Source: a virus. Taken from it: a stretch of DNA of 64,000 bases. Within the stretch, counting starts at the first letter, position 1; the number at the start of each line of letters is the position of its first letter. Shown here piece by piece: positions 28,884 through 43,872 of the stretch. Below the pieces are notes generated by a model. That model did no database searches. It had not been told where the DNA came from and saw nothing but the letters and a program-made list of their open reading frames with translations. The stretch lies in IMG/VR virus record IMGVR_UViG_3300025118_000006, positions 1-64,000 of that record, one strand, 5' to 3'. Both the position numbers and the translations under genes were made by a program.

Positions 28884-29293
28884 TGCGGTCGGTTGCGCTG
28901 ATGCTTGTTATGGTTCTAGTTGGGCAAACCTCTCTAAAAGCACAGGTTTGCACTCAGGCGGTCGGAATCGAGGCTGGCGTCGTAACACCGTGCGACGGTG
29001 TGCTTTGGAGCCCTACGCACTCAGTACAGGCTGTGGAGTGCGTGTCTGTAGATCTACCGAAGTGTGTTGCAGATGTGGATTACCATAGCGGTCGGTCTGC
29101 TACTTGTCGCCAGCACATCTCGAAACTGGAGACATTGTGCGACGGGAAGATCGGCCAACTAATCGACATTGCTGAAGATGCTGCGGGCCTGAAGCCGGAG
29201 CCGTGGTATAAGAACCCGTGGCTGATGTTGGGATTAGGGGTGGTCATAGGCGGGGCTTCGGTTTACTATATTGGTACGAACTACGGGAACTAA
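28880..29293 (+). CDS. secreted Cys-rich protein with C-terminal TM segment (spanin-like)
   Basis: Signal peptide, six Cys, PWYKNPWLMLGLGVVIGG tail. Confidence 0.5.
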   Translation: MMRSVALMLVMVLVGQTSLKAQVCTQAVGIEAGVVTPCDGVLWSPTHSVQAVECVSVDLPKCVADVDYHSGRSATCRQHISKLETLCDGKIGQLIDIAEDAAGLKPEPWYKNPWLMLGLGVVIGGASVYYIGTNYGN

Positions 29294-29295
29294 GC

Positions 29296-30912
29296 ATGGG
29301 TTGGTTAAAAAACATCGTTGCGCCAGACGTTATTGATCTGGAAAAAGCACGCAAAGCCGAGGTTGTGAACAAGTCAAAGGCTTGGAGCTTCGACCCAAAC
29401 GAGCTACGGACAGGTCTGTACGGCGGGCCTGAAGTAGCGGAGCACCAAGGTACGCTAGGGGTCAATTACAACACACTTATGGTTATGAGCCGGGTGCCCA
29501 TTATAGGTGCCATTATACAGCTTAGAACAAACCAGTTAGCTGAATTCGCGATGCCACAAATGTCGCGCTACGGCCTTGGATTTAAGATCGCGATGCGCGA
29601 CAAAAAAGCCAAGGCGACGACAGCAGCGGAAAATCAGATTAAGGAAATACAGACGCTCATACAGACATGTGGTGGCTACAAGTACGAACCCCAAGGTTTC
29701 GAGGGTTTCATGCGGAAGATTGTTCGAGATTCGCTCACCTATGATCAAGCGAACTTCGAGGTTGTTTACAACAAGGCCGGTAAGCCCGGAGCTTTCTGCG
29801 CTGTGGATGCGATGACAATCAGAAGAGCTATCCCAAAGGACGCCAAGCGCAAGGGCGGGGCAGCAGGTCTTGACAGCAACGATAAGGATGCTTTCGTTCA
29901 GGTTCTAGGCAATAAGCAGGTAGCTGAATTCGGAAGGCAGGAGATGGCTTGGGGGATTAGAAGACCCAGGACTTGGATGAGAGTAAACGGCTACGGCTAT
30001 CCAGAGTTGGAAGAGTCGATGAGGATCATAACAAACCTCTTGAATGCGGCTGAATACAACTCAAACAACTTCACTCATGGAGTTCACGCGAATTCGATTC
30101 TGACAGTGAAGTCTGGGATGTCGAAAGAGGTGTTTGCGGCTTTCAGGCGACAGTTTTACGCAATGGTTTCCGGGGTTCGCAATGCGAAGAGAACACCGAT
30201 TATCCAGCTTGACCCAGAGATGAAGGAAGAAATCTCAAACGTGTCAATGAGCCAATCGAACAAGGAAATGGAATACTCCAACTGGATGTCTTTCCTCCTT
30301 AAAGTCTTGTGTAGCGTGTACGGCCTGGACGCGGCAGAGCTAGGCTTCGTGTATGGCAACGAAGGGCAGGCGGCTTCACTCTCGCAAAAAGGGCCGGAGG
30401 AGCGAATTGTCGCGTCGAAGGAGCGTGGGTTGAGGCCGCTCGTTCGTGCCGTACAGGGATGGATGAATCAGTGGGTTGTTTACCCGGTAGACGAGGATTT
30501 TGAGATTCAATTCGTAGGTTTCGACGCTCACTCTGAATCAGAAAAGGTAGAGCTAGACACGAAGGCTGTAAAAGCGTTTAAAACCGTAAACGAAATCCGC
30601 GCAGAACACGACCTACCGCCACTCGAAGACAGCGTTGCTGACATGGTCTTAGATCCAACTTACGTGCAGTTTGCAACGGCGGGTGGAGAAGAAGAGGGCG
30701 GCGAGGAAGAAGGCGACTACGGGTCATATTTTGATGACTCTAAAGGCGACGAAGGCGAAGATGACGAGGAAAAGGGAGAAGAGGAAGTGCCCAGTGGCAA
30801 GCCGAAGAAGCCAGAGCCTCGAAAAAAAGAAGGCGGCAAAGGCGACTATAGTGACTCCTTTGAAGAGAAAACAGAAAAAGGGCTCCGAACGGTCACTATC
30901 GAGGTGACCTAG
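29296..30912 (+). CDS. portal protein
   Basis: RDSLTYDQ, VDAMTIR, GYGYPELE, DAAELG, SKERGLRPL and TVNEIR motifs of Twort/SPO1-type portals; acidic tail. Confidence 0.9.
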   Translation: MGWLKNIVAPDVIDLEKARKAEVVNKSKAWSFDPNELRTGLYGGPEVAEHQGTLGVNYNTLMVMSRVPIIGAIIQLRTNQLAEFAMPQMSRYGLGFKIAMRDKKAKATTAAENQIKEIQTLIQTCGGYKYEPQGFEGFMRKIVRDSLTYDQANFEVVYNKAGKPGAFCAVDAMTIRRAIPKDAKRKGGAAGLDSNDKDAFVQVLGNKQVAEFGRQEMAWGIRRPRTWMRVNGYGYPELEESMRIITNLLNAAEYNSNNFTHGVHANSILTVKSGMSKEVFAAFRRQFYAMVSGVRNAKRTPIIQLDPEMKEEISNVSMSQSNKEMEYSNWMSFLLKVLCSVYGLDAAELGFVYGNEGQAASLSQKGPEERIVASKERGLRPLVRAVQGWMNQWVVYPVDEDFEIQFVGFDAHSESEKVELDTKAVKAFKTVNEIRAEHDLPPLEDSVADMVLDPTYVQFATAGGEEEGGEEEGDYGSYFDDSKGDEGEDDEEKGEEEVPSGKPKKPEPRKKEGGKGDYSDSFEEKTEKGLRTVTIEVT

Positions 30913-31202
30913 TGAAAGTAATCGTAAAAGAATCCTTTTCAGGAGAGCTTGACAGTCGCCACGCGGTAGAAAAATTGGAACAGGCTATAAGCGAGTTCTC
31001 AGAACTTGCTGGGTTGGGGGTGGGTAATTCGTTCCAAAAGCACACTTGTGATGGCCACGAGGTTTTGGAAAAGGCCGTAAAGACACACGACCACCGAGTG
31101 GACGCTGTCGATGAGATGGTTGAGTTAATGCGTAAGGCTTATGAGAAGCGCATGAAGGCGATGGTCAAAGACATCGCGAAGCGTGTCAGCGATGGCGTCT
31201 AA
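30912..31202 (+). CDS. small head-module protein
   Basis: GAGGTG SD; coupled on both sides. Confidence 0.6.
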   Translation: MKVIVKESFSGELDSRHAVEKLEQAISEFSELAGLGVGNSFQKHTCDGHEVLEKAVKTHDHRVDAVDEMVELMRKAYEKRMKAMVKDIAKRVSDGV

Positions 31203-33682
31203 TGTCCTTACCACCAAAAATAGATGACATAGTATCCGCGCACCACGATGGGTTCCTCTACGATCTTTTTGGAGAAAGCCTCGGTCTTCCACTGGAAAGG
31301 GTCGCTGAGTTGCGAAGTATGGGGATACTTCCTGATATCCCGGTACCAATTTTAGCCCGTGCAGGGCTGGACGTATTGGCTGCTCGCCCGCTCATGATGG
31401 CCATGATGATTGGTGCCGCAAAGCAGTCGATGGAACCTGGGAGGCGAAAACAGGCAGACCGATGGCCCGCAAAGAAGTGGGCCAAGCAAATCATCAGAGA
31501 TGCCCCTTCGGTAAGTTCACCACCCCCGACTATCCCCTCGGTGACACCTATCGGTGGCGATACGCCTGACCTTCCACCACCACCTCCTCCTCCTCCGACC
31601 GGATCGGGAGGTGGTGGGCCTAAACCACCGGACCCACCGGACTTTTTGACCGACCTACAGAGGCACTCTTGGACGCAAGCAAGGGAGCGTGCAGGATCGT
31701 TTGTTCGAGGGCTAGGTAACATTGTCACAGCAGAAGCAGAAACAACGCTTGCGGAAGTGTGGAACGGAGAGCAAATAGAGCGCGAGACAGACGCAGATAA
31801 GCGTGCAGAGGTTGTCGATATCATTCGGGAAGAGACGGCGGCAGCCACCGCCAACAACACGAAGTGGAGATCTAGTACAGCGCAAAAGCTCGCATCAAAC
31901 CTTGCACACAGGACTGGTGACTGGAGTCGCAATTGGGAGCGGATAGCGCGAACGGAGCTTCAGGGTGCGTACAATGAGGGCAGTGTGTTGGAGGCCATCG
32001 AATGGGACGGCCCAGACGCGCTCATAGCCAGAATACCTGAGCCAAGCGCGTGCGCTGATTGCCGACGTGTACACATGACACGAGATGGCAGGCCACGGGT
32101 TTTCAAGGCGAGCGACCTCATAAACAATGGTACAAATGTAGGCCGAAAACGCGCACAGTGGCAGGCTACTATCTGGCCCGTTCACCCGAATTGTAGATGC
32201 GACACGCAACACATCCCCGAGGGAATGGAGTTCGATGATGAGTGGGGGCTTGTATACAAGGCGTATTCATTCTCGCAGTTAGCGAACCTTGTAAAGGCCA
32301 AGGGCTATCTATACAAGGCAGGGCCTTTTATCGGTCCACGCGGTGGCAAGTGGGCTGACGCGAAGCATACGATAGCCTGGAAGGAAAAACAGACAACAAG
32401 GACTAAGGGGCATGAAATAGCAAGACTCCCGCCAGAGGTTCAATCAGAAATAGCAGGGGCGGTCACTTTTGTGACCCGCCTTTTTCCAGAATTGCAAGAT
32501 GTCCGCGTGGTGATTGCAGATCATGATCTTGGCCATTCTCACGCCACTAAGGACAGTAAAAAAATCAAGCTCAACCCCACAACTTGGCTGGACGTAAATA
32601 AGCTAAAACAGCAACGGGATGAGGCGGCAGGGCTGGTGGTAGATGGGTCGATCAAGGGCATTATCGTACACGAGTTAGGCCATATACTGGCTGGCCGAAT
32701 ACTCAACGCGCTTGGATCGAAAAAGTACAACGAAATAGCGCAAAAGCACTTAGGCGTACCGCAAGATGGCTTAGATCCGTGGGGAGAGCCTGTATTCACC
32801 ACGCTGTCTAACTCTGACATGCCAAGCGCATACGCTATGGATAACAGGAGCGAGTACGAGGCAGAAGCCTTTTCAGCAGCGGTATTTGGAAAAGCAGAAA
32901 CGAACCCCAAGTGGGCGGCAGGGGCTGTAAACAAGTCTAAAGCGTATTGGGCAGACATGCTCCACGCTTATCGAAATCTAAGCAAGTCATTAGCAAAATC
33001 CGGTCCCTACATCGGCCCTCGCGGTGGTAAGTGGGCTGACGCCAAGCATACAATTGCGTGGAAGGAAAAGTCTAAGAGGCAGCTTAAAAGGGAGGCTTCG
33101 GAGAAGAGAAAGAAGGCGCGAGCGAGCGCAGAAGGGCCTGCGGTAGAGGCGTATAACAAGGCCGTTAAAGACCACAACGAACACGATGACGCTGGGTATG
33201 ACGCAAACGCTTCGGACATGGTCGATGTCGCGTACGGCGGGTACGCACCGGCAAAAATAGACGCCATGAAGGTTTGGGCCAAAAAGGTGGGGCTAGAGGT
33301 TGGCGAAACTGATTTTTCAGGTGGAGCATCGTATGGCAGCGCGTACATACAATTGAAAGTTCCAGGCATCGGCGCGGTGGGAGGATCAGGACGGTTGGAC
33401 CGGGCCGTTGTTGTGAGAATGTCGGATCACGGAAACATGGCGCGAGTTGGCGGGCGGCTGCAAACTGACACAAACATAGCGCCTGATTTTGGTTGGACTT
33501 TCATGAAAGGGATAGGGCACGCGATTGGTATCTTGCGCGAACGCTTTCAAGAGCACCTCGACAACGCAGACGACGACGATTATTTCGACCAAGACCCAGA
33601 TGGCGATGCAGAGCGCAAGCGAATGGAAGAGGCTATGCCACTTCTTGACAAGCTCGGAAAGCTGTACCGAAAACCCGGTTAA
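31202..33682 (+). CDS. MuF (SPP1 gp7-like) head protein fused to a zincin domain and a second cargo domain
   Basis: WERIARTE, C..C, PVHPNCRC (MuF); HELGH...S.YA....EYEAEAF (zincin); two GPxIGPRGGKWADAKHTIAWKE tags. Confidence 0.85.
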   Translation: MSLPPKIDDIVSAHHDGFLYDLFGESLGLPLERVAELRSMGILPDIPVPILARAGLDVLAARPLMMAMMIGAAKQSMEPGRRKQADRWPAKKWAKQIIRDAPSVSSPPPTIPSVTPIGGDTPDLPPPPPPPPTGSGGGGPKPPDPPDFLTDLQRHSWTQARERAGSFVRGLGNIVTAEAETTLAEVWNGEQIERETDADKRAEVVDIIREETAAATANNTKWRSSTAQKLASNLAHRTGDWSRNWERIARTELQGAYNEGSVLEAIEWDGPDALIARIPEPSACADCRRVHMTRDGRPRVFKASDLINNGTNVGRKRAQWQATIWPVHPNCRCDTQHIPEGMEFDDEWGLVYKAYSFSQLANLVKAKGYLYKAGPFIGPRGGKWADAKHTIAWKEKQTTRTKGHEIARLPPEVQSEIAGAVTFVTRLFPELQDVRVVIADHDLGHSHATKDSKKIKLNPTTWLDVNKLKQQRDEAAGLVVDGSIKGIIVHELGHILAGRILNALGSKKYNEIAQKHLGVPQDGLDPWGEPVFTTLSNSDMPSAYAMDNRSEYEAEAFSAAVFGKAETNPKWAAGAVNKSKAYWADMLHAYRNLSKSLAKSGPYIGPRGGKWADAKHTIAWKEKSKRQLKREASEKRKKARASAEGPAVEAYNKAVKDHNEHDDAGYDANASDMVDVAYGGYAPAKIDAMKVWAKKVGLEVGETDFSGGASYGSAYIQLKVPGIGAVGGSGRLDRAVVVRMSDHGNMARVGGRLQTDTNIAPDFGWTFMKGIGHAIGILRERFQEHLDNADDDDYFDQDPDGDAERKRMEEAMPLLDKLGKLYRKPG

Positions 33683-33746: not shown

Positions 33747-34496
33747 ATGAAGACTTTTCAAAGCCTGAACGACATTTACAAGGCTGCAAAGAAGCCAAAG
33801 AAGGAAGAGAAGGAACCTGAAGAAGAGGTGTCCGAGGGGCAAATGTCCTTGTTTGACGGCCTAAAAAAGGCCGCAGACGAAGAAGAGGACGAGGACGAGA
33901 AGCGCGACAAGAAGCTGCAACAACGGCTCGACGAAGAGGCGGCTGGTGGCGAGGAAGAGTATAAGCGGATGAAAGAGGAAGAGGCTGAGAAGTCTTTCTC
34001 GGGCCTCGAAGGAATGGACATTGTCAAAAACATGGCCAAGGTCCAGGCCGAAATGAAGAGCGGGAAGTCCGCGAAAGAAGCTGTTCAGGCCGCATACCCG
34101 GATTACACCGAAGAGCAGGTAGAGATCTTTGTGAAGGACATGAAGAAAGGCTACGGCGTCTATCGTGCCAAGAAGGAAAAGAAGATGATTAAGTCAGACA
34201 ATGAGAACACACGGCTTGTGGTGAGCCTCACAAAAGGCGCATTGGAAGAGAGCGTTTCGATCATGCGAGGTGGTCCAAGTCGAGCAGACGTGGCTACAGC
34301 GTTGGCTTCATCGATTAAGAAGGGTTTCAACATCCCTGCGGAGTTCCCAGAGATGATGTTAGACGATCTCGACACATGCTCTAACGTAGCTCGCAAGAGC
34401 TTTGCTAATGCGTGCATGATGACCGCATCGGGATACCCAGAATTGCAGGTAGCTGGCGACATGGTCGGGTACCTTGAAGAGCTTACAGAAGGATAA
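33747..34496 (+). CDS. highly charged head-module protein (internal/scaffold-like)
   Basis: GGAG SD; many hydrophobic-x-K-[ASG] sites. Confidence 0.6.
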   Translation: MKTFQSLNDIYKAAKKPKKEEKEPEEEVSEGQMSLFDGLKKAADEEEDEDEKRDKKLQQRLDEEAAGGEEEYKRMKEEEAEKSFSGLEGMDIVKNMAKVQAEMKSGKSAKEAVQAAYPDYTEEQVEIFVKDMKKGYGVYRAKKEKKMIKSDNENTRLVVSLTKGALEESVSIMRGGPSRADVATALASSIKKGFNIPAEFPEMMLDDLDTCSNVARKSFANACMMTASGYPELQVAGDMVGYLEELTEG

Positions 34497-34499
34497 ATT

Positions 34500-37400
34500 A
34501 TGGCAGATTTTACGTCGCTAATTCATGGTGGGCTCAACGATCTCCGCAAGGGGAAGGGTCCGTTTATCGGACCCCGTGGCGGCAAGTGGGCCGATGCCAA
34601 GCATACAATTGCGTGGAAAGAGGACGGTGGGAAGTCGGGTGGTAAAAAGTTCAAGCCGGACCCTGAGTATAAGTTAAGCTCGGAGGGGCATAACAAAAAA
34701 GACTACAACCGTGGCCTGAAGGAGGGGATGTCTAGCACGACAATCCCGCAAACGTCCGAAAAAGATAAGAAAGACACGAGCTATATGGCTGGCCTGAAAC
34801 AGGGCTTAATGGTGCAGATTAAGGCAAAAGACCACGCGAAAGCTCGCTATAAAATGCTGCGAGAAAGAGCAGACCGAGGTGAAAAGGGTGGGATTCCGAA
34901 GGGGTCTAGTGTCACCGAGAAAGTCTACATCGAGGCAAACACCGACGCCATCATGGAGAACATCCTGTCCGGCATGGAGCCGGACGGAAAGGGTGGCTAC
35001 AAGGGTGGCTATAGAAAAGCCTCCACCACCTTCTCGGACCTCGCGAAAGGAAAGCCCACAAAGTATCTCAAGCGTAAACGCGGCAAGGGTGGTCGCTACG
35101 AGTACACCTACGCCGAAGACGGTAAACCTAAGAAGAAGAAGGGCCGCTTTGGGAACCTTCTAAGCACGTTGATGGGTGTCGTTAAGAAGCATCCATACGC
35201 GCTGATGGGTGAGTTTAAGTCGATGGTACGCGACTTCGATTTGGATGAGCTAATTGAGATGCGCTCCGAGATCAAAGACGCACTCGAAGCGAAACCTGAG
35301 AAGAAGGCTCCGGGCGAGAAGAAGGCTCCCAAGAAAGAAACCGCCGAAAAGAAAAAGCCAGCCCCAAAGAAAGGCCCGTCGGAGAAAGATATTCTTCGCC
35401 AGATGCTCAAGGCCATCGACAAGATGATCGCCAAGAAGCAGGAGGCGAACTCGAAGCTAAGTCTGAGGAGCTTGGTCGCGGGCTATCACAAGGGCGACAC
35501 TGAAGCGATTAAAGAGCTATACAAGAGAGCGCAGGAATTGCTTCCTGGCATTCGCATCTCAGACGCTCTTAACGTGGTCGCAACGGCGGCTGAAAACTAC
35601 GGGAAATTGCCGAAAGAATTTGTGGACGAGATGATTCGGGAGAACCGGGTCAAGGGCAAGAAGCCACCCGCAGCCGCTACAGAAGAGGCTCCGAAGCCCG
35701 CTGCCAAATACGAACGCTCAAAGTGGGCTGATTTTAAGAGCCAAATGGCCTCGTCTGACGGCGGCGCAAAATTAAACAGGCAATACGCGGAATTCGCGAA
35801 AAACGCACTGAAAGCCACGTCAAAGAAAGACCTAAAGCACGCCATCGAACAGGCGAAGGCAGCGAGTAGAAAGGATGACACGGTGGTCACTAGGACTGGT
35901 GTCGGGTATTCGACAGGAATCAAAGGCAAATTAAAGCGATTGCAAGCCCACTTGGAAAACAAGCTCAAGCTAGTGTCCAAGTATGGCGAGAGCGGGTTGG
36001 CCAAAGAAAGCGAAAAAAAGCAGAAAGAAAAGAAGCCAGTCACTCCGCAAGTTCCCGCGATGGAGGGCATGGCACCACTTGGAATAGCTCCGAAGCCCGC
36101 TGGCGAGGACATTGGCGTAGCCAAAGAGAGAGGCGACAACCGATACAAAAGCTCTGGCACCACCGACAAGGCCACGAATCACGATGAGATTATCGCCGCT
36201 GGCGGGGAATACCTCGGTCAAGGTGTGTACACGGATAAAGGTCCACCCAAGGCAAAGCGTGGGAAAAAGGGCAAGGTTGAGATCGTCCACCGTGGAGAAA
36301 AGAAACTGACCGATGGGACCATCTACGGCAAGGGTGACTGGGCCATCACTAAGCAACTTGAGTCGAAAAGGGTTACAGTGACAAACATAGCTACCGGGCA
36401 CTCCATCGGTGGCGAGATGTCCGGGCCACAGGCTTCGTACTTGATGGACCAAGTCATGGAATTGGAAGCGAGTGGAAAGCTGGACGGGTTCGACCCAGAC
36501 AATTTGTCCTCATCGTCATCAAAACCAGCGTTTGATGCTCTCAAGAAAGTCGCAGACGAAGTGCGCGAGGAAGGTAACTCTGGTATGCCTATCTGGAGCC
36601 GACGAAACAAGGCGAAACGAGAGGCTAACAGGCGGGCGAAGGTCGAGAAGCTCACCGAAGCAGCGTCCGTGAAAGGCGTCATCAGCCGCCCACTAGCCCT
36701 GGCTGATGTGAAAAGAAAAGAGCACAAGAGCGGAGAGGCCGCTCACAAGCGGGCAAGAAATTTTCAATCTACAGACGAATTCCGACTAAATCTTCAGCAG
36801 TCCATAGTAGACCGTTTCGAGGGCGAGCAGTACATGATTTCAACGGACGGCCACAGGATGGCGTTGATACCAGTATCGAATGACGTGAAACAAGGGGTGG
36901 GCTACGGCGAGGGTTCGCGAGATGCTCTGGGTGGAGGACGTGAATTTCCAAACTATAAGCAGGTCATACCGGATGACCGGAAGGCAAATGACACCCACGA
37001 CTTCGACGCCGAAACACTGCTGGCGCACGCGAAGCTGGGGGCATCGACGCCGGGTGTCATGGCGGGTTACGTTCATTTATACGCAGACGGTGGTGCCCAC
37101 AAAGCCCAAGCCAGTCATTCGGCTGTGATATCGCCTGAAGTTGACGAGAGGGAAAAGGGCATGGCGGGGATCGCTCTTGCGGAGTCCAAGCGCCCTTCCA
37201 CTGCGGGCGAGCCCACCGGAGGCGACAGCAAGAGCATCTCGGTGAACGCAAGGTATTTGGTAGACGCCCTTGAGGGCGCAAAAGGCTCAGTGTCCGTGTA
37301 TTACAAGGACAAAGGTAGCCAGATGATCATTGAAAGAGCCGATGGCGAGATACACGTCATCATGCCTGTGCGTGATGCTATGCCGAAGGACCACCCACAC

Positions 37401-39818
37401 AGGACGGAAGAGTGGGAGGTAAGCCCAGCCAGCAAGTCCTTCACCAACTTCTCCGATCTTTTCAAAGCGAAGCCCACCAAGTACAAGACTCGCAAGCGCG
37501 GAAAGGACGGAAGGTGGGTTTACACGTATGCTGAGAAGAAGGCACCGAAATCGCGGATGGGCGCGTTCTTGAACAAGATTGTCGGCTTTTTCTCTGAGCA
37601 CCACGACAAAGAGGATAACCTCATAGCGGCAGAAAAGAAGCTCATCTACGATCTGGAAACGCCACAGCTTGAGATGCTTAGGGATGCGATAAAGGCCGAA
37701 CTGGCCGCGATGGAAAAGAAGCCTGTTCCGGGGGCAAAGAAAAAGAAGCCCTCAAAGAAACGCTCGGGAGCACCCGTAACAGCAGAAAAGAAGGGGCCGT
37801 CACGCAAGCAAATTCTTCAGCAACTTCTTGCGAAGATCGATGGAGAGTTGGCTGCTCGCGCAATCGTGGGCTCCGCACCAACGGAGTCCGAAGACAACTT
37901 CGAGACGATGCCTGATGAGGAGTCCATCGGGCACCGTAGAGCCCGAGAAGTAATGGCCATGACCGTGAGCGATGCTTCACGGCTTGCGAGCGAAGAGCCA
38001 GGGACTCCGTTACGAGCCCCACACCACACAACATCGACACAAGGTTTACTCGGTGAACTTGACCAAGCGCAGGGGGGCATCCTATTTCTCGACCAGATCG
38101 AGGACTTCTCCCTTGAGTCGATCAAAAAGCTCGCAGTTGCGATGCGAGACAACCCCTATGTGATGATCGGGTACAGAACCACCGGCACCGGCACCGAAAC
38201 CGACAAGGTGAAGCTGAAGGCCCGCCTCGAAGCCCTGGGTGTTGATGTCAGCATGTGGGATGCCAATGAGGGCGTATCCGAAGACAACTTCGAGACGATT
38301 CAAGAGCACTATAGCGCGAAGAAGCAGCTTCTCAGAGACGTGGACGTTGTTCGCGCCTCGAAACTTAATGAGCTTAACGTGCCGTCACACTCGGAAATTA
38401 TGGACCACGCGGTCAATCATTCCCATTATAGGCACGTTAAGCCAGCCTTTAAGAGTGCCAAGGAGAAAATTGACCGCCTAAATGAAGCTCTTGCGGCGCT
38501 AGGTGTAAGAGAGTGGCGGGGTTACAAAATAAAGCCGTTCGCCTCTAGCGACTTAGATGACTTAATCGCGATGAGGGATCAGATACGGCGCGATGAAGAA
38601 GCCCTAAGCGCGAGGGTGGGCTTGGTTTCGGTAGACCTTCCGTCGAATTCAATGATTGGCCGTGAGCATCCCGAGGTAGGGCCACAGATCAGGGAGGAAA
38701 GGGAGAAGTTAGAGGAGGTCAAATCGGCTATTGCAGCTTACAACAATGAGGGCACATCCGAAGACAACTTCGAGACGATGCCTGAAGCAACCACGCCCGT
38801 AAGCCAAGCGCATGAAGAGAATCGCCTGGACGCTGAGTTGCGAAGCAACAACACCAGCGAGCAGAAGGCCAACGAGAACATCTTCACGTATGCCGAAAAT
38901 GCCTTGGACCCGGACTCGCTTAAATTCGTCATCGAGTGGTCAGAAAGTGGTGCTGTAGAAGACGGCCAAGAGTTCGCATCAGTCAATGAGCTTAACGCCA
39001 AATTGCAGGAAATATCCGACCACCATAGGGAGCGGTACGGTCTTGGTGGTGGCTACTTTAAGACAAAGGTCTACGCTGAACTTGAGGGCAATCGGTTCTT
39101 TGGCAACCGTCTGGACGTTACATCGGGCGGCGAAGACGTAAATCTGGTAGATCACATGACTGCGATTTCTCATTATTACCAGTCCGACAGGGGTCGAGAA
39201 TATTGGTCGGCGGTTCAGGCTAACCAACGTGACAGGGGTGAAGAGACAGGCGAGCAGGCGCACGAGCGGGCGCAGTCGTATAAGAACATGGTTCAGCTAG
39301 TGCGGGACCATCAAAGAATTGCCAGTGGCTACGACATCGCAGGGGGCGACCCTCCTCAAGTAAAGTCTAAGAGAGAGTTAGACAAACTATCCGAAACAAG
39401 AAGAGCACAGGCCGATGCTTGGGAACAAGCAGAGCGAGAGGCCGAACAAAGAGCCGCCCAGGATGCTCACGCGGCTCGAACAGCAGGCTGGGAAGCCCCG
39501 CAGAGCAGGCGAGAGGTAACCAAGCGCGTTAAGCGAGCTATCGTTCAGGCGACTGGTTTGCCAGCGAAGGACGTTAGCGTTCGTGGTTCAACAGGGACCG
39601 CCTGGGGGTGGGTACGGATAAGCGGAAAAACGCAAGCAGCGCAAGCGGCTATTGATGCGTTTCAGGGAAGGACTTATTGGGGCAACATTTCTCCAGATGA
39701 CTGGGACAGGGCAACGCTAGAGTTTGAAATTGGTGCGGGCATTCACACTCCGGGCTCTATCTCGCGAGGCGGCTTCACTAACTTCTCAGACCTGCTCAAA
39801 TCAATAGGCCGTGCCTAA
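34500..39818 (+). CDS. large polyvalent protein / polyprotein with beta-clamp-like, ComM-like and LPD25-like domains
   Basis: STDGHRMA, FPNYKQVIP, NARYLVDAL, VIMPVR; PLRAPHH, ILFLDQ; IEWSES..GGYFKTK; repeated tags. Confidence 0.8.
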   Translation: MADFTSLIHGGLNDLRKGKGPFIGPRGGKWADAKHTIAWKEDGGKSGGKKFKPDPEYKLSSEGHNKKDYNRGLKEGMSSTTIPQTSEKDKKDTSYMAGLKQGLMVQIKAKDHAKARYKMLRERADRGEKGGIPKGSSVTEKVYIEANTDAIMENILSGMEPDGKGGYKGGYRKASTTFSDLAKGKPTKYLKRKRGKGGRYEYTYAEDGKPKKKKGRFGNLLSTLMGVVKKHPYALMGEFKSMVRDFDLDELIEMRSEIKDALEAKPEKKAPGEKKAPKKETAEKKKPAPKKGPSEKDILRQMLKAIDKMIAKKQEANSKLSLRSLVAGYHKGDTEAIKELYKRAQELLPGIRISDALNVVATAAENYGKLPKEFVDEMIRENRVKGKKPPAAATEEAPKPAAKYERSKWADFKSQMASSDGGAKLNRQYAEFAKNALKATSKKDLKHAIEQAKAASRKDDTVVTRTGVGYSTGIKGKLKRLQAHLENKLKLVSKYGESGLAKESEKKQKEKKPVTPQVPAMEGMAPLGIAPKPAGEDIGVAKERGDNRYKSSGTTDKATNHDEIIAAGGEYLGQGVYTDKGPPKAKRGKKGKVEIVHRGEKKLTDGTIYGKGDWAITKQLESKRVTVTNIATGHSIGGEMSGPQASYLMDQVMELEASGKLDGFDPDNLSSSSSKPAFDALKKVADEVREEGNSGMPIWSRRNKAKREANRRAKVEKLTEAASVKGVISRPLALADVKRKEHKSGEAAHKRARNFQSTDEFRLNLQQSIVDRFEGEQYMISTDGHRMALIPVSNDVKQGVGYGEGSRDALGGGREFPNYKQVIPDDRKANDTHDFDAETLLAHAKLGASTPGVMAGYVHLYADGGAHKAQASHSAVISPEVDEREKGMAGIALAESKRPSTAGEPTGGDSKSISVNARYLVDALEGAKGSVSVYYKDKGSQMIIERADGEIHVIMPVRDAMPKDHPHRTEEWEVSPASKSFTNFSDLFKAKPTKYKTRKRGKDGRWVYTYAEKKAPKSRMGAFLNKIVGFFSEHHDKEDNLIAAEKKLIYDLETPQLEMLRDAIKAELAAMEKKPVPGAKKKKPSKKRSGAPVTAEKKGPSRKQILQQLLAKIDGELAARAIVGSAPTESEDNFETMPDEESIGHRRAREVMAMTVSDASRLASEEPGTPLRAPHHTTSTQGLLGELDQAQGGILFLDQIEDFSLESIKKLAVAMRDNPYVMIGYRTTGTGTETDKVKLKARLEALGVDVSMWDANEGVSEDNFETIQEHYSAKKQLLRDVDVVRASKLNELNVPSHSEIMDHAVNHSHYRHVKPAFKSAKEKIDRLNEALAALGVREWRGYKIKPFASSDLDDLIAMRDQIRRDEEALSARVGLVSVDLPSNSMIGREHPEVGPQIREEREKLEEVKSAIAAYNNEGTSEDNFETMPEATTPVSQAHEENRLDAELRSNNTSEQKANENIFTYAENALDPDSLKFVIEWSESGAVEDGQEFASVNELNAKLQEISDHHRERYGLGGGYFKTKVYAELEGNRFFGNRLDVTSGGEDVNLVDHMTAISHYYQSDRGREYWSAVQANQRDRGEETGEQAHERAQSYKNMVQLVRDHQRIASGYDIAGGDPPQVKSKRELDKLSETRRAQADAWEQAEREAEQRAAQDAHAARTAGWEAPQSRREVTKRVKRAIVQATGLPAKDVSVRGSTGTAWGWVRISGKTQAAQAAIDAFQGRTYWGNISPDDWDRATLEFEIGAGIHTPGSISRGGFTNFSDLLKSIGRA
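37887..38785 (+). repeat. three copies of TCCGAAGACAACTTCGAGACGAT (37887, 38277, 38757)
   Basis: 23-nt identity in all three copies; encodes SEDNFET; spacing 390 and 480 bp. Confidence 0.95.
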
Positions 39819-40036
39819 TGCAGCCAGCCCAGCCCCCAAAGGATACAGCAATTGTGTGCGATTACTGCGGTTTTCGCTTGGGCGTCTGGGTTAAATCACG
39901 CCTAAAGATACACGTTCGGAGTCGGCTTTTAGTGGTAAGAAAAAGTGGACAAGCTGAGTTGAGATGTCACAATTGTAAAAGCGACACTCTACTTCCTCTT
40001 TTTCTACCTCTGGAGCAGCCATGTTCATCTGGTTAA
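39818..40036 (+). CDS. small zinc-ribbon protein (Mu Com-like regulator candidate)
   Basis: CDYC...ELRCHNCK; upstream of the head protease leader. Confidence 0.55.
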   Translation: MQPAQPPKDTAIVCDYCGFRLGVWVKSRLKIHVRSRLLVVRKSGQAELRCHNCKSDTLLPLFLPLEQPCSSG

Positions 40037-40476
40037 ACGTACTTCTGACTATGATGTTCCTTCCGGTTGCGCTGTTGTTTGGTAAAATTAAGCGAGTCGG
40101 GCTCTGTAAGGACGCAGTAAACGATCAGGTAAACGAAGCGTTTCCCGTGTCGAAGTGGACCCCGTATTTAGATCTTGAACCACGAGGCTGGTTTAGGTGT
40201 TGGATGGAGAGGAATGGGATCGGTGGTATGGCGTGCCTCGGGTACGTGTTTATCCAACAAAGACACGAGTTAATTGTGTTCCATGAGTGCGTGCATGTGA
40301 TGCAGCAGAGCGCGGTGAGCCCTGCACTGATAGGTCTTACCTACCTTCTGGACATAATCGTGTTCCTTCCGTGGCGTGGATGGTTCAAGGAGGGAGAGGC
40401 TAAGAGGGTGTCCACGGTAGAGGTCGTAGCGTACCGGGTGACAGGGCAAGACGAGTGGTCTTCGGGACAAGATTAA
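40021..40476 (+). CDS. membrane protein with HExxH zincin-like motif
   Basis: HECVHVMQQ and a distal E..AY. Confidence 0.6.
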   Translation: MFIWLNVLLTMMFLPVALLFGKIKRVGLCKDAVNDQVNEAFPVSKWTPYLDLEPRGWFRCWMERNGIGGMACLGYVFIQQRHELIVFHECVHVMQQSAVSPALIGLTYLLDIIVFLPWRGWFKEGEAKRVSTVEVVAYRVTGQDEWSSGQD

Positions 40477-40480
40477 ATAC

Positions 40481-40569
40481 TTGACACCGATCTTGGCCCG
40501 GACAAGAATGTGCAGAGAGGCCCGTAGTTTAGGGGCGCGAGAATCCGTGTGGTTTTTGTGCCTTTTTTT
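40481..40569 (+). promoter_or_regulatory. promoter plus leader terminator (attenuator) before the head genes
   Basis: TTGACA-17-AAGAAT; GU-rich stem 40534-40545/40551-40562 plus T7. Confidence 0.6.
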
Positions 40570-40582
40570 GTTTTGGTGATTT

Positions 40583-41341
40583 ATGTACGAGAATAATATC
40601 GACGTATTCAGCGCATGGACCCCGTTCGACGTTGTCGAAAAGGGTGAGTCCGAAAGCAGTCCTAGTGGTCGTATCTCCGGTGTTGTTTCAACTGAGACGG
40701 TAGACCAACAGGGCGAGCAGGTTGTACAGAAGGGCCTCGACTGGGACTATTTCCTGAGCAAGGGTTGGTTCAACTGGGAGCACGCGGCTGGGCCTGAAAA
40801 TGTTCTAGGGTACCCAGACAAGGTTGAACCCGTAGAAATCAACGGAACCCACGCAACTCGCGTAGAGGGCCGTCTCTTGATGAACAAGGCTAAGGCCAAA
40901 GAAATTTACAATACGGCGGTAAGTCTACAGAAGTCGGAATCAAACCGACGGCTTGGATTTTCCATCGAGGGTCAGGTGTTAGAGCGCGAAGGGAAGACGA
41001 TCAAAAAAGCTCGTATTCTCAATGTTGCGATAACTGCTCACCCGATTCATCCAGACGCACGTTTGGAGATCCTAGCGCAATCACTCCTCGCCCGCGCCGC
41101 CTCTGTCGGCTATCAAACCCCAGCCGGTGAGGGCGGCTCTATAGCACCTTTGGTCGCACAATCTCTGGAAGGCTCAGTTTCAACTGCCACCTTCGGGGCT
41201 CGTGGTCTTGAAGCGTATTTGAAGAGCTTGAAAGAGGAAGACCTGATTGCGCTGCGTATTCTAAAGAGCTTTCCAACGCTCAATTTTGGAGACGCACATT
41301 CCATAGTAACAGACTTTTTACGAAAAAAGGGAGTCCTCTAA
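40583..41341 (+). CDS. prohead protease
   Basis: ISGVVSTE.VD.QGE, FNWEH, LGFSIEG, NVAIT..P.HP motifs. Confidence 0.88.
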   Translation: MYENNIDVFSAWTPFDVVEKGESESSPSGRISGVVSTETVDQQGEQVVQKGLDWDYFLSKGWFNWEHAAGPENVLGYPDKVEPVEINGTHATRVEGRLLMNKAKAKEIYNTAVSLQKSESNRRLGFSIEGQVLEREGKTIKKARILNVAITAHPIHPDARLEILAQSLLARAASVGYQTPAGEGGSIAPLVAQSLEGSVSTATFGARGLEAYLKSLKEEDLIALRILKSFPTLNFGDAHSIVTDFLRKKGVL

Positions 41342-42063
41342 TGAAGAAGGCAACGCAACTCCGAGAGGAGTTAAACGGCGTGCTTGCGGACGGGGAAGTA
41401 GATCGCGTAGTAAAATCCGCGATTGACGCTGGAACAGTCGAGAATGACATCGACTACAAGCCAGCGGTAGATCCAGAAGCACTCGACGTAGCACTCGAAG
41501 CCGTTAAGAAAGCGATGAATATCGCTAAAGAAGAAGTATCAACTGAGCAAGCACTAGCTCAAGCCGAAGAGATTGAGGAAGAAGTTTCCAAGTCTCTTAG
41601 CTTTGACGAAGTCGCTCTCGCAGAAGAAGAGGACTACGTTGATGTAACGGACGTTCTCGACACAATCACAAAGGGCGCAGACAGCCTTCTGAGTGAGATT
41701 CGCCACGAGCACACAGTGTTGGCAAGCGCAATCACTGAGATGACTGCTGTATACCGCGACATCGCTAAGGGCATCAACGCGCTTAGTGGTCGAGTCGGTG
41801 ACCTAGAGAACGAAACCAAAGAGGTCCAAAAGGGTCTTGCCATTACTCCTGAACGTAAATCCGTTACAGGCACGTTAGAGGCAGTTCCCCACCCAGGTGA
41901 CGCTCCAGTGCAGCTTGACCGCGCCGGACTCATCCAGAAGGGCCTGACACTTCTTGAAACTTCGACTGAGCCAATGAAGCAAGCAGAACTCTCGAAAGCC
42001 ATTTCGCTTTTGGAGTCTGGTGCTGACATTAACGAAGTCGTAAGCAATTACCATCTTAACTAA
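41341..42063 (+). CDS. scaffold-like protein
   Basis: Acidic and helical, between protease and capsid genes, dense in xxK[SAG] sites, P.RKSV motif. Confidence 0.7.
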   Translation: MKKATQLREELNGVLADGEVDRVVKSAIDAGTVENDIDYKPAVDPEALDVALEAVKKAMNIAKEEVSTEQALAQAEEIEEEVSKSLSFDEVALAEEEDYVDVTDVLDTITKGADSLLSEIRHEHTVLASAITEMTAVYRDIAKGINALSGRVGDLENETKEVQKGLAITPERKSVTGTLEAVPHPGDAPVQLDRAGLIQKGLTLLETSTEPMKQAELSKAISLLESGADINEVVSNYHLN

Positions 42064-42077
42064 GGAGGGCTTTCATT

Positions 42078-43508
42078 ATGCTTTCAATGCCCCAAGCAAA
42101 CGACCTAGTGTCGGTGAAGGACTTGCATGAGCTTAACAAAGCTCTCCGCAAGGCCACAGCGGCTGGCTACCAGACACCAGCCAGCCAAACACCAGACGGC
42201 AACACCACCTTTAGCCCACTGGTGCCTCAATCTATTGAGGCGACTCTCGCTTCAAAAACTTTCACTATGGACGAACTCGTTCTGTGGAAAATGCTGCCTA
42301 AACGCGCAGTTTCTCAAACCGTTCATGAGTACACCGTTGTAAATGAGCATGGTGGAGATATGGACCCATTCTTCGTGGAAGGTGGTGGTGGATATGAATC
42401 CCTCAGCACTTACGAAAGAAAGAGTCTGCGAATCAAGTACCTCATGGAAAAGCGAGAGGTTACTGACGTGGCCTCTATGGTCGGAATCATCGGCAATAAC
42501 GCAAACGCTATTGCTGAAGCCACCGAGCGTGGAACCATCTCTCTTTTGAGCAAGTTGGAGAAGCAGCTTTTTATCGCTGACTCCAGCATCAACCCACTTG
42601 CATTCGATGGTATCGATAAGCAGATGGCTGATGGCGCTCCTAACAATGTCAGCAACCTTGCTGGTGATGACCTTACTCCAATGAAGTTGCAGGAAATCCT
42701 GTCTGGCTCCTATGCCGAGCCAAACTTCGGTAAGCCATCCGTAGTTCTCGTTGAGCCTCGCGTACACGCGCAGCTTATTGAGCAGGCTACTGCTTATGGT
42801 CGCCACGACATGATGGGCACGGGACAGGGAACAATGACCTTCGGTCGTTCCGACCTCCGCATCTCGGTGCCTTACGGTACTGGTTCCGTACCTGTAGTTG
42901 GTTGCCCGTTCTTGTACCCAGAAGGTGCACCGAACGCAGCCGCTGTTGGTACTGCACCGACAGCACCTTCTGCTTTCAACACCCCTACCGTTGCAACTCA
43001 CGCTTCTTCCCTGTTCCTCTCCGGCGATGCCGGAACTTACTACTACCACGCGGTAGCAGTAGGACAGGGCGGTAAGTCAGCACCGATTGTGTCGGCTGCT
43101 ATAACAGTAGCTGCTGGTGAGCGAGTATCCGTTGGTATTAACGATGACGCCCTTGCTACACCAGTAAGCGGCTCCGAGAACACTGCAAGTATCTTGTACT
43201 ACAAGATTTATCGCAGCACGACCGGCGTCCACGCTGATGCAAAGTGGGCCTTCAACGTCAAGAAAGCGGATACCAGTAGTGACACCGCATTCAACGATGA
43301 CAACCTTCACCGCCCTGGCATGTCCAAGGCGTATGCTCTTCAGATGACTCCAGATGTAATCGAGTGGGTAAAACTTCTCGACTTCATCCGTCGTCCTCTT
43401 GCAGAGGTGAAGACCACTAAACCATTCTTGCTCATGCTCTTTGGTGCGCTAAACATCAAAGTTCCGACCAAGAACTGGCTTATCCGTAACATCAAGACTA
43501 ATCCTTGA
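42078..43508 (+). CDS. major capsid protein
   Basis: KA...GY.T N-arm, PL..QSIE.TL, TVHEY, FDG..K; AAGGAGG SD; position in the head module. Confidence 0.9.
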   Translation: MLSMPQANDLVSVKDLHELNKALRKATAAGYQTPASQTPDGNTTFSPLVPQSIEATLASKTFTMDELVLWKMLPKRAVSQTVHEYTVVNEHGGDMDPFFVEGGGGYESLSTYERKSLRIKYLMEKREVTDVASMVGIIGNNANAIAEATERGTISLLSKLEKQLFIADSSINPLAFDGIDKQMADGAPNNVSNLAGDDLTPMKLQEILSGSYAEPNFGKPSVVLVEPRVHAQLIEQATAYGRHDMMGTGQGTMTFGRSDLRISVPYGTGSVPVVGCPFLYPEGAPNAAAVGTAPTAPSAFNTPTVATHASSLFLSGDAGTYYYHAVAVGQGGKSAPIVSAAITVAAGERVSVGINDDALATPVSGSENTASILYYKIYRSTTGVHADAKWAFNVKKADTSSDTAFNDDNLHRPGMSKAYALQMTPDVIEWVKLLDFIRRPLAEVKTTKPFLLMLFGALNIKVPTKNWLIRNIKTNP

Positions 43509-43527
43509 TGTTATAGTACTATGAGTT

Positions 43528-43562
43528 AGCCGCCTCTTCTTAGCGGGGGAGGCGGCTGCTTG
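43528..43562 (+). terminator. hairpin after the capsid gene
   Basis: AGCCGCCTC/GAGGCGGCT stem with a weak U-tract. Confidence 0.55.
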
Positions 43563-43600
43563 TGTGCTTTTAGTGTTAATTAACCTGGGAGGAAGTACCG

Positions 43601-43861
43601 ATGGCGGTAATCTGGAAACATAAAACAATTCGCAACAGCACTGTTGTGGTTGGCTCTGAAACCTATCAGATTGATGGAGAAGGCGTTTTGTCGCCTGAAT
43701 TGTCGGAGCCAGCATCAACACGTTTGCTAGGTATTCCCGGCTATTCGTGTTCGCGAGTGCCCGATGCGAAGCCAAAAGAAAAACCTGCGCCGAAGAAAAA
43801 TCCAGCAGCCAAAAAGGCTGCCCCAAAGAAAAAAGCGGCTGCAAAGCCTAAGAAAAAATAA
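43601..43861 (+). CDS. small protein with Lys/Ala-rich tail
   Basis: GGAGG SD; KKAAPKKKAAAKPKKK. Confidence 0.7.
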   Translation: MAVIWKHKTIRNSTVVVGSETYQIDGEGVLSPELSEPASTRLLGIPGYSCSRVPDAKPKEKPAPKKNPAAKKAAPKKKAAAKPKKK

Positions 43862-43872
43862 GGAGAATTCTC

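What the first reader, a model, noticed from the sequence alone, without database searches (positions are those of the whole stretch)
36750..37376. Minimal beta-clamp domain that keeps the peptide-binding pocket but probably cannot form a ring
Seen: STDEFRLNL, ISTDGHRMA, FPNYKQVIP, ISVNARYLVDAL and HVIMPVR parallel DnaN DVRYYL, VATDGHRLA, FPDYRRVLP, IGFNVSYVLDVL and YVVMPMR. Domain I is absent and the stretch between TDGHR and FP.Y is less than half the usual length. Known: these motifs line the cleft that binds clamp-binding peptides of Pol III alpha, delta, Pol IV/V, Hda and MutS/L. Inference: an injected decoy that titrates clamp partners or clamp-targeting defence proteins.
Basis: partly seen in the sequence, partly recalled or inferred. 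Interest (0 to 1): 0.78.

Follow-up and report, generated by a model that had tools for sequence, protein, structure and literature searches.

The report
Pocket-only sliding-clamp domain in phage cargo
A giant protein encoded among the head genes of an uncultured phage contains a cut-down copy of the bacterial DNA sliding clamp that keeps the clamp's partner-docking pocket but lacks the parts that normally close the ring, and the gene next door carries a peptide of the kind that fits that pocket.

Summary
Window 36726-37376 (residues 743-959 of a 1772-aa ORF, 34500-39818 +) is a true but truncated DnaN homologue. It has the first half of clamp domain II, the FPxY linker and all of domain III. 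Domain I and the second half of domain II are absent. Evidence: family profile against PDB clamps E=7e-19; AF2 model pLDDT 82; VIA Z 16.4 on E. coli beta residues 133-365. Fourteen of 18 published pocket residues are identical to E. coli, against 26 of 160 elsewhere.

The domain belongs to a family (44 representatives) found mostly at the C-termini of large phage proteins. Where I could see the context, it recurs in portal-MuF-giant protein-protease-capsid gene orders.

New here: the adjacent 249-aa gene carries QMSLF, a clamp-binding-type motif. ESMFold2 docks it in the pocket (0.66; best control 0.00). That result may be recall of solved clamp-peptide complexes.

The injected-decoy reading is plausible but untested. 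Packaging, delivery, oligomeric state and the real ligand are all inferred.

This scan has already found stand-alone pocket-only mini-clamps in coliphages, and clamp-motif peptides in polyvalent proteins, on other DNA. This window puts pocket and peptide in neighbouring genes. Verdict: new variant of a known kind.

The parts
34500..39818 (+). 1772-aa polyvalent-type protein that contains the clamp-like domain
   Evidence: One open frame. It lies between portal (29218-30912), a MuF-like gene (31202-33682) and a 249-aa gene upstream, and prohead protease (40583-41341) and major capsid protein (42078-43508) downstream. LPD25 match at residues 1472-1561, E=1.4e-5, 26.1 bits against a cut-off of 27.
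36726..37376 (+). Truncated DnaN-like domain (P0001 residues 743-959): three beta-alpha-beta-beta-beta units instead of six
   Evidence: VIA Z 16.4, model 14-229 onto E. coli beta 133-365. Family profile against PDB E=7e-19. AF2 pLDDT 82.
36726..36944 (+). Retained first half of clamp domain II (helix plus strands, with R..L and TDGHRM at 36843-36860), followed by a short low-confidence loop that replaces the second half
   Evidence: pLDDT 95-98 for model residues 11-70. Twenty-eight residues stand where E. coli has 63. True three-domain clamps in alignment A1 show the missing helix and strands.
36945..36971 (+). FPNYKQVIP interdomain linker (equivalent to E. coli F241-P249, pocket residues P242 and V247)
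   Evidence: The proline is invariant in alignments A1 and A2. It is part of the predicted peptide interface, residues 88, 90 and 93.
36972..37376 (+). Complete clamp domain III, including NARYLVDAL and HVIMPVR. A disordered insertion at about 37167-37211 has no counterpart in E. coli.
   Evidence: (pLDDT below 50 for model residues 161-175).
36252..36704 (+). Co-conserved upstream module of unknown fold family (five strands plus three helices) that precedes the clamp-like domain in the closest relatives
   Evidence: Shared with P0003-P0007 and P0017. Alignment A5 shows 38 invariant columns. Folded at pLDDT 79-91 in the second model. No PDB sequence relative.
33747..34496 (+). Adjacent 249-aa gene: N-terminal charged, probably disordered region carrying a clamp-binding-type motif, then a module that is fused behind the clamp-like domain in relatives
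   Evidence: an 88%-identical homologue has QISLF. Residues 80-139 match the C-terminus of the L007 clamp-bearing protein at 42% identity.
33840..33854 (+). QMSLF, a candidate ligand motif (consensus QL[SD]LF)
   Evidence: It is the only strict match on a real coding frame in the 64-kb window. It is predicted to sit in the pocket, partner residues 28-36, ipSAE 0.66 against a best control of 0.00.

Best explanation
Residues 743-959 of the 1772-aa head-module protein are a cut-down beta sliding clamp. They comprise the half of domain II that borders the partner-binding pocket, the interdomain linker and the whole of domain III. Domain I is absent, so the canonical head-to-tail ring cannot form. 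I therefore read the domain as a free docking socket for clamp-binding-type short peptides (Q-x-[S/D]-L-F) and not as a DNA-encircling clamp.

The host protein is a polyvalent-type cargo protein. It is probably packaged in the capsid, possibly cut at repeated SEDNFET sites, and probably delivered with the DNA. All three steps are inferred. The first candidate ligand is the QMSLF peptide of the co-encoded 249-aa neighbour. This would tether the two proteins together, or plug the pocket until delivery. After entry the same pocket could capture host clamp clients.

Shown: homology, fold, architecture, pocket conservation, family, gene context. Predicted only: peptide docking. Inferred: packaging, delivery, non-ring state, biological role.
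For: Homology and fold: E=7e-19; Z 16.4, rmsd 3.5 A over 185 residues.

Architecture: alignment with true three-domain clamps shows the deletion of the second half of domain II and the absence of domain I.

Pocket: using the residue list from PMC11139829, the window is identical to E. coli at 14 of 18 positions against 26 of 160 elsewhere, Fisher p=1.7e-7. Across 33 short-family members the figures are 72% against 15%. Within-family conservation is 0.75 against 0.39.

Family: 44 representatives at E<1e-3 in 1.84 billion proteins. Most have the domain at the very C-terminus of proteins of 200 to 2676 aa.

Context: the order portal, MuF-like gene, giant protein with the clamp-like domain, protease, capsid protein is seen in the window and in full in L003. 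L009 shows it as far as its contig end, just past the giant gene. In L004/L010 the domain-bearing gene follows a MuF/DarB-like/methyltransferase polyvalent protein.

Ligand: QMSLF lies in the adjacent gene and is QISLF in a homologue. ESMFold2 gives ipSAE 0.66/0.65/0.68 against a best of 3 controls of 0.00. The mark was reached by 58 of 80 solved complexes and 2 of 110 mismatched pairs. Runs agree in at least 77% of contacts, and partner pLDDT is about 50. Contacts fall on the TDGHRM, P.Y..V, N(ARY) and VIMPVRD residues.

Q-x-S-L-F motifs also occur in the genes flanking the clamp-bearing gene in relatives L006 (QTSLF) and L007 (QKSLF), at non-homologous positions. A module of the 249-aa protein is fused behind the clamp-like domain in L007, P0003, P0004 and P0006.
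Against: The docking prediction closely resembles many solved clamp-peptide complexes, so it may be recall. It shows likeness, not binding (caveat printed).

Pocket residues are also the most conserved residues of all clamps. Homology searches are therefore biased towards sequences that keep them.

Two pocket positions differ from E. coli in kind (R246 to Q, V344 to G). One relative (L010) lacks the FPxY linker altogether.

No clamp-type motif was found next to the domain in L003, L008, L009 or L010, nor inside P0003-P0045. The neighbour enrichment rests on three related phages. By my rough Poisson estimate from the counts it has p of about 0.01-0.03.

Position 2 of the L006 and L007 motifs (T, K) is atypical.

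Packaging, cleavage and delivery rest on synteny alone. The oligomeric state was not tested.
Confidence: 0.55

Rival explanations
1. Host-directed decoy or recruiter. After injection, the pocket binds host proteins that carry clamp-binding motifs (Pol III alpha and delta, Pol II/IV/V, MutS/L, Hda, ligase). It either sequesters them from the host clamp or brings them to the incoming phage DNA. On this reading the neighbouring QMSLF peptide is aimed at the host clamp and not at the phage socket.
For: The pocket is nearly the same as the cellular one across a divergent family. That is what one expects if the ligand class is fixed by the host and is not free to co-evolve with the phage. The phage record held contains a DnaB-like helicase and an initiator but no DNA polymerase gene, so it may depend on host polymerases. 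Phage proteins that use clamp-binding motifs on the host clamp are known, for example Mu MuC (PMC12867686, listed).
Against: No host is known and no host partner was tested. The record is only 54% complete, so the missing polymerase means little. A few injected copies per virion would titrate abundant clamp clients poorly (inference).
Confidence: 0.3
2. It still works as a clamp or clamp subunit. It could form a non-canonical oligomer, for example by pairing of the orphan half-domains. It could cap a host beta monomer through its domain III interface. Or it could act as an open, UL42/UL44-like processivity factor on DNA.
For: The domain III strands and the basic residues of the inner helix (A.KR motif) are conserved in the family. 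The herpesvirus non-ring processivity factors share the fold at Z 7-9. Databases label short stand-alone relatives 'PolIII beta-like processivity factor'.
Against: Domain I, one side of the canonical interface, is missing. The domain is embedded in a head-module polyprotein and not in a replication module, whereas a real three-domain phage clamp (L011) sits beside a DNA polymerase. The E. coli interface residues I272 and L273 appear not to be conserved, by eye from the sequence and not by a computed comparison. No oligomer prediction was run.
Confidence: 0.1
3. It is a decayed relic or a mere structural spacer. A clamp gene fragment was captured by a shuffling polyvalent protein and is kept only as a stably folding filler.
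For: Polyvalent proteins shuffle domains freely. The same protein also carries a fragment of an AAA+ (Mg-chelatase/ComM-like) domain.
Against: The family is diverse, yet it keeps the pocket residues far better than the rest of the fold. The same truncated architecture recurs at 25-48% identity in many proteins.
Confidence: 0.05

Closest known systems
Bacterial beta sliding clamp DnaN (E. coli, PDB 1MMI/2POL/3Q4J)
   Same: Homologous fold over clamp residues 133-366 (Z 16.4). The pocket motifs are the same (R152, L155, T172, G174, H175, R176, P242, V247, N320, Y323, V360, M362, P363, R365).
   Different: It has 1.5 domains instead of 3. There is no domain I and no second half of domain II. It is embedded in a 1772-aa phage protein. 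It scores below Pfam thresholds and is about 19% identical overall.
Full-length phage-encoded beta clamps (PHROG 947; example L011, 381 aa, beside a DNA polymerase)
   Same: Best PHROG match (E=3.8e-8). Phage origin.
   Different: Those have three domains and sit in replication modules. This one matches only profile positions 238-365 of 368 and sits in the head module.
Stand-alone phage mini-clamps
   Same: The same kind of pocket-only truncation. Functionally unstudied. Often in or near head modules, according to the earlier scan notes.
   Different: Those are separate small genes. Here the domain is an internal module of a polyprotein. There is no tblastn match to any GenBank phage at E<1e-3.
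Polyvalent proteins of phages and conjugative elements (Iyer et al. 2017, PMC5512222)
   Same: A giant multi-module protein next to portal and MuF genes, with repeated linkers and an LPD25-like module. One family member carries ART-PolyVal.
   Different: That paper's text never mentions clamp, DnaN, processivity or sliding, so a clamp-derived module is not in its text. MuF is in a separate gene here.
Herpesvirus processivity factors UL42, UL44, PF-8 and BMRF1
   Same: Works-like analogy: a clamp fold used without a closed homotrimeric or dimeric ring, which binds a partner's terminal peptide (the peptide binding is from general knowledge). Structural match Z 7-9.
   Different: Two full domains, eukaryotic-virus lineage, proven polymerase cofactors. 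No sequence relationship was detected here.

Membership tests
Beta sliding clamp DnaN (PF00712 + PF02767 + PF02768) | Three tandem clamp domains (N-terminal, central, C-terminal) | tested here: not met
   Alignments and the structure match begin at clamp residue about 133. Domain I is absent and the second half of domain II is replaced by a 28-residue loop.
Beta sliding clamp DnaN (PF00712 + PF02767 + PF02768) | Scores above Pfam gathering thresholds | tested here: not met
   DNA_pol3_beta_3 scores 15.8 bits against a cut-off of 27. There is no match to the other two models.
Beta sliding clamp DnaN (PF00712 + PF02767 + PF02768) | Clamp fold (beta-alpha-beta-beta-beta repeats) | tested here: met
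   Z 16.4 over 185 residues. Clamps fill the top 16 places of a search of all PDB representatives. This holds for 3 of the 6 repeats only.
Beta sliding clamp DnaN (PF00712 + PF02767 + PF02768) | Hydrophobic partner-binding pocket between domains II and III | tested here: met
   At sequence level, 14 of 18 pocket residues are identical. Predicted docking of QMSLF scores 0.66 against a best control of 0.00. No binding measurement exists.
Beta sliding clamp DnaN (PF00712 + PF02767 + PF02768) | Head-to-tail dimer forming a closed ring on DNA | not testable with these tools
   Domain I, one side of the canonical interface, is absent.
Phage polyvalent protein (Iyer 2017) | Large multi-domain protein encoded beside portal and MuF head genes | tested here: met
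   Gene order in the window, the same order in L003, and the same order as far as the contig end in L009.
Phage polyvalent protein (Iyer 2017) | Carries recognised polyvalent-associated domains (LPD, MuF, peptidase) | tested here: inconclusive
   LPD25 scores 26.1 bits against a cut-off of 27, E=1.4e-5. The MuF-like match is in the separate neighbouring gene. That gene's Peptidase_M48 match has only E=0.0086.
Phage polyvalent protein (Iyer 2017) | Packaged in the virion and delivered with the DNA | not testable with these tools
   This needs virion proteomics.
Pocket-only phage mini-clamps (PHROG 3007/6615 type) | About 170-220 aa: half of domain II plus domain III, ending in IMPxR | tested here: met
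   phrog_3007 E=4.3e-5 and phrog_6615 E=0.01 on the segment. Thirty of 33 short forms cluster apart from full clamps in a FastTree without support values. Here the domain is internal and not a free-standing gene.

The most novel reading that the evidence does not exclude
Phage virion cargo proteins use a hijacked clamp code, in the form of a matched socket and plug. The socket is a pocket-only beta-clamp domain. The plug is a Q-x-S-L-F peptide placed just behind a likely maturation cleavage site. The two are encoded side by side. Proteins delivered with the genome could then assemble with each other through this pair. On entry they could swap partners with the host replisome hub: the socket takes host clamp clients and the plug takes the host clamp. 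That would make a clamp mimic part of the first wave of host takeover.
Probability: 0.25. Interest if true: 0.8.

Novelty: new variant of a known kind. Interest (0 to 1): 0.6.

Why it matters
The beta clamp is the central hub of bacterial replication and repair, and its pocket is a drug target. A family of phage proteins that keeps only this pocket, here built into a protein that probably travels with the DNA, would be a natural minimal pocket. It would be useful as a structural and screening scaffold.

It would also point to a takeover or assembly mechanism that the polyvalent-protein literature searched here does not describe. The side-by-side pocket and QMSLF peptide make the question testable with two purified pieces. 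The finding also adds a clamp-derived module, and several conserved peptide tags, to the catalogue of polyvalent-protein parts.

Tried and rejected
**Searches that found nothing**
- blastn of the whole gene, and tblastn of this domain and of the L003 domain, against 50,697 GenBank phages: no match.
- Word-indexed search for long relatives found only the protein itself. A profile search with A2 returned mostly cellular DnaN and added nothing.
- Clamp-type motifs were sought inside P0003-P0045 and in L002-L004: none.
- DNA polymerase families A, B and C were not found in the 78.5-kb record, but the record is only 54% complete.
- Pfam on 33 family members added only DNA_pol3_beta_2, DNA_pol3_beta_3 and one ART-PolyVal.

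- Alignment A1 was too divergent for a locus scan.
- No homo-oligomer prediction was run, because the single complex job went to the peptide test.
- No model included the FSDLF tag that lies 24 residues behind the domain.

**Leads dropped**
- L011 first looked like a fourth case of a neighbouring motif (MKLTQLSLDL). Its clamp is a normal three-domain one in a replication module, so I excluded it.
- Upstream module: no Atlas hit and no PDB sequence relative. The best structural match is PsiB at Z 4.0, which is noise level.
- I considered a closed ring from four 1.5-domain protomers. I think it unlikely on geometric grounds (from memory of clamp symmetry). It was not tested.

**Literature**
- The polyvalent-protein paper does not mention clamps.
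- Searches for truncated or DnaN-like phage clamps, 'beta-like processivity factor', and beta clamp with polyvalent protein found nothing relevant.
Full report
**What is at the coordinates**

The finding lies inside a single 1772-aa open frame, 34500-39818 on the + strand.

The window is part of a 78.5-kb uncultured virus record, estimated 54% complete. It has a myovirus-type layout:
- large terminase 19482-21143
- portal 29218-30912
- MuF-like minor head gene 31202-33682
- a 249-aa gene 33747-34496
- the giant gene
- prohead protease 40583-41341
- major capsid protein 42078-43508
- tail sheath 47756-49771

The capsid protein is under 30% identical to any GenBank phage, so the host is unknown.

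**Is it a clamp?**

Yes, by homology.
- The single sequence gives PHROG 947 'DNA polymerase processivity factor' at E=3.8e-8.
- It gives PDB beta clamps at E=0.002, in two colinear pieces.
- Pfam DNA_pol3_beta_3 stays below threshold, at 15.8 bits against 27.
- A profile of ten family members hits 50 PDB beta clamps, best E=7e-19. It aligns to E. coli residues 148-366 with one long gap in domain II.
- An AF2 model built on a 33-row alignment has pLDDT 82.2 and pTM 0.81. Foldseek ranks E. coli clamps first at probability 1.0.
- VIA-align gives Z 16.4, rmsd 3.5 A over 185 residues, model 14-229 onto clamp 133-365.
- A search with a second, longer model that does not depend on Foldseek, against 48,161 PDB cluster representatives, puts bacterial clamps at Z 13-16. 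PCNA, gp45 and 9-1-1 score about 10-11, and herpesvirus UL44/UL42-type factors score 7-9.

**Architecture**

Alignment with true three-domain clamps (P0045, P0028, P0031, P0040, P0033) shows what is missing: all of domain I, and the helix and strands of the second half of domain II. Between TDGHR and FPxY the window has 28 residues where E. coli has 63. About 30 family members have 9-42 residues there.

What remains is three beta-alpha-beta-beta-beta units: the half of domain II that borders the pocket, the linker, and all of domain III. Domain III carries one disordered insertion (model residues 161-175). Domain I supplies one side of the canonical ring-closing interface (general knowledge), so the standard head-to-tail ring cannot form. 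Other oligomers were not tested.

**Pocket**

The published residue list is as follows (PMC11139829, read):
- subsite I: R152, L155, T172, G174, H175, R176, L177, P242, R246, V247, V360, M362
- subsite II: H175, N320, Y323, V344, M362, P363, M364, R365

The window is identical to E. coli at 14 of these 18 positions, against 26 of 160 other aligned positions (Fisher p=1.7e-7). Across 33 short-family members the identity to the E. coli residue is 72% against 15%. Within-family conservation is 0.75 against 0.39. The differences are L177M, R246Q, V344G and M364V.

Two caveats apply. These residues are conserved in all clamps, and homology searches favour sequences that keep them.

**Family and context**

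An exhaustive phmmer search of 1.84 billion representatives found 44 proteins at E<1e-3. In most of them the domain ends at the very C-terminus, as in real clamps, of proteins from 119 to 2676 aa with unrelated N-terminal parts. Pfam recognises almost nothing else in them. One carries ART-PolyVal.

Where the context could be read, it is the head module:
- L003: portal, MuF-like gene, 1008-aa protein with the domain, protease, capsid protein.
- L009: portal, MuF-like gene, 2113-aa protein with the domain. The contig ends just beyond it.
- L004/L010: the domain-bearing 625-aa gene follows a 1477-aa MuF/DarB-like/methyltransferase polyvalent protein.

The closest relatives (L006, 46% identity; L007, 42%; P0003-P0007) also share a 150-aa upstream module of unknown fold family. 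A FastTree without support values puts 30 of 33 short forms apart from the cellular and full-length clamps.

The text of the polyvalent-protein paper contains no instance of clamp, DnaN, processivity or sliding, and other literature searches found nothing on such domains. BFVD holds short stand-alone relatives with database names such as 'PolIII beta-like processivity factor' (217 aa), and a 1394-aa 'Large polyvalent protein-associated domain-containing protein'.

**A candidate ligand next door**

The only strict clamp-binding-type motif (Q[LM][SD]LF) on a real coding frame in the 64-kb window is QMSLF. It sits at residues 32-36 of the adjacent 249-aa protein, in a charged and probably disordered stretch. 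An 88%-identical homologue has QISLF.

ESMFold2 docked residues 10-60 of that protein onto the domain:
- ipSAE was 0.66, 0.65 and 0.68, against a best of three controls of 0.00.
- The mark was reached by 58 of 80 solved complexes and by 2 of 110 mismatched pairs.
- The runs agree in at least 77% of contacts, and partner pLDDT is about 50.
- The contacts are partner residues 28-36 with the TDGHRM, P.Y..V, N(ARY) and VIMPVRD residues, which is the canonical pocket.

As the tool warns, many clamp-peptide complexes are solved. The pass therefore shows likeness and does not show that this copy binds.

In the two closest relatives with flanks, Q-x-S-L-F also occurs in a gene flanking the clamp-bearing gene, at non-homologous positions. 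L006 has QTSLF in the upstream 1244-aa protein. L007 has QKSLF 18 residues from the C-terminus of the downstream 1977-aa protein. A crude count gives three such hits in about 8,000 neighbour residues against two or three in about 37,000-44,000 other residues. My rough Poisson estimate from the counts is p of about 0.01-0.03. The sample is small and the phages are related.

No such motif flanks the domain in L003, L008, L009 or L010.

Residues 80-139 of the 249-aa protein are homologous to a module fused directly behind the clamp-like domain in L007, P0003, P0004 and P0006. This is a gene-fusion link between the two window genes, though domain shuffling is common in such proteins.

**Mechanism**

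I commit, at about 0.55, to the reading that the domain is a non-ring docking socket for clamp-binding-type peptides, carried by a probable virion cargo protein. Which ligand matters is open:
- The phage's own QMSLF protein, acting as a tether or a plug.
- Host clamp clients, bound as a decoy or recruited.

The near-cellular pocket across a divergent family argues that at least one side of the pair is constrained by the host's clamp code (inference). A residual clamp or processivity role (0.1) and a functionless relic (0.05) are less likely, for the reasons given under the rivals.

**Relation to earlier scan notes (read after my own analysis)**

The scan has repeatedly found stand-alone pocket-only mini-clamps of about 170 aa in coliphage head modules. 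It has also found clamp-motif peptides in the linkers of polyvalent proteins of other uncultured phages, in one case directly behind predicted cleavage sites.

I did not re-test those genomes. In this window the analogous features are both present, and they sit in adjacent genes. QMSLF follows VSEG, which resembles the xSE[D] context of the three SEDNFET repeats.

**Verdict**

This is a new variant of a known kind: a clamp-derived, pocket-only module as an internal part of a head-module polyprotein, paired with a neighbouring clamp-type peptide. Interest is 0.6.

Noticed in passing
window 32321-32386, 33002-33067, 34557-34622: A 22-aa peptide, GP[F/Y]IGPRGGKWADAKHTIAWKE, occurs twice in the MuF-like protein and once at the N-terminus of the giant protein. 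Two copies are identical in protein but share only 52 of 66 bases, so the peptide itself is under selection. It could be a docking or targeting tag. The same tag recurs in L006 proteins, once 20 residues before QTSLF.
   Followed up: partly
window 37887-37907, 38277-38297, 38757-38777: SEDNFET occurs three times at module boundaries of the giant protein. It is conserved in relatives (AEDNFETMPE in P0003, SEDNFETMEE in P0005). These may be maturation cleavage sites or conserved linkers. VSEG directly precedes QMSLF in the 249-aa protein.
   Followed up: partly
window 35022-35150, 37440-37570, 39774-39815: A repeated tag F(T/S)(N)FSDL.K is twice followed by KPTKY..RKRGK.GR..YTYAE and a helical lysine-rich module. 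The second copy starts 24 residues after the clamp-like domain. Its FSDLF resembles the C-terminal half of the QLDLF clamp-binding consensus, so an intramolecular plug is conceivable. This was not tested.
   Followed up: no
window 37968-38180: A fragment of an AAA+ ATPase of Mg-chelatase/ComM/sigma-54-activator type (P0001 residues 1157-1227, 'GGILFLDQIEDF') scores just below the Pfam thresholds. The same fragment is present in P0003 and P0005. It is a second cut-down domain in the same protein.
   Followed up: no
window 38913-39182: An LPD25-like module (residues 1472-1561, E=1.4e-5, 26.1 bits against a cut-off of 27). Iyer et al. [quoted passage not shown] Here it sits in a phage polyprotein.
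   Followed up: no
window 36252-36704: The upstream module co-conserved with the clamp-like domain folds confidently as five strands and three helices. It has no PDB sequence relative. Its best structural match is the conjugative anti-RecA factor PsiB at Z 4.0, which is noise level.
   Followed up: partly
L011:9192-10720: In an unrelated phage, a canonical three-domain clamp gene beside a DNA polymerase is preceded by a 134-aa ORF that begins MKLTQLSLDL. This is a hexameric clamp-binding-type motif at the extreme N-terminus, as in Hda.
   Followed up: no
window 21607-25140: A 1177-aa ORF just after the large terminase has no PHROG match and only a sub-threshold Pfam match (Sarcoglycan_1, 25.5 bits against a cut-off of 32.5).
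   Followed up: no
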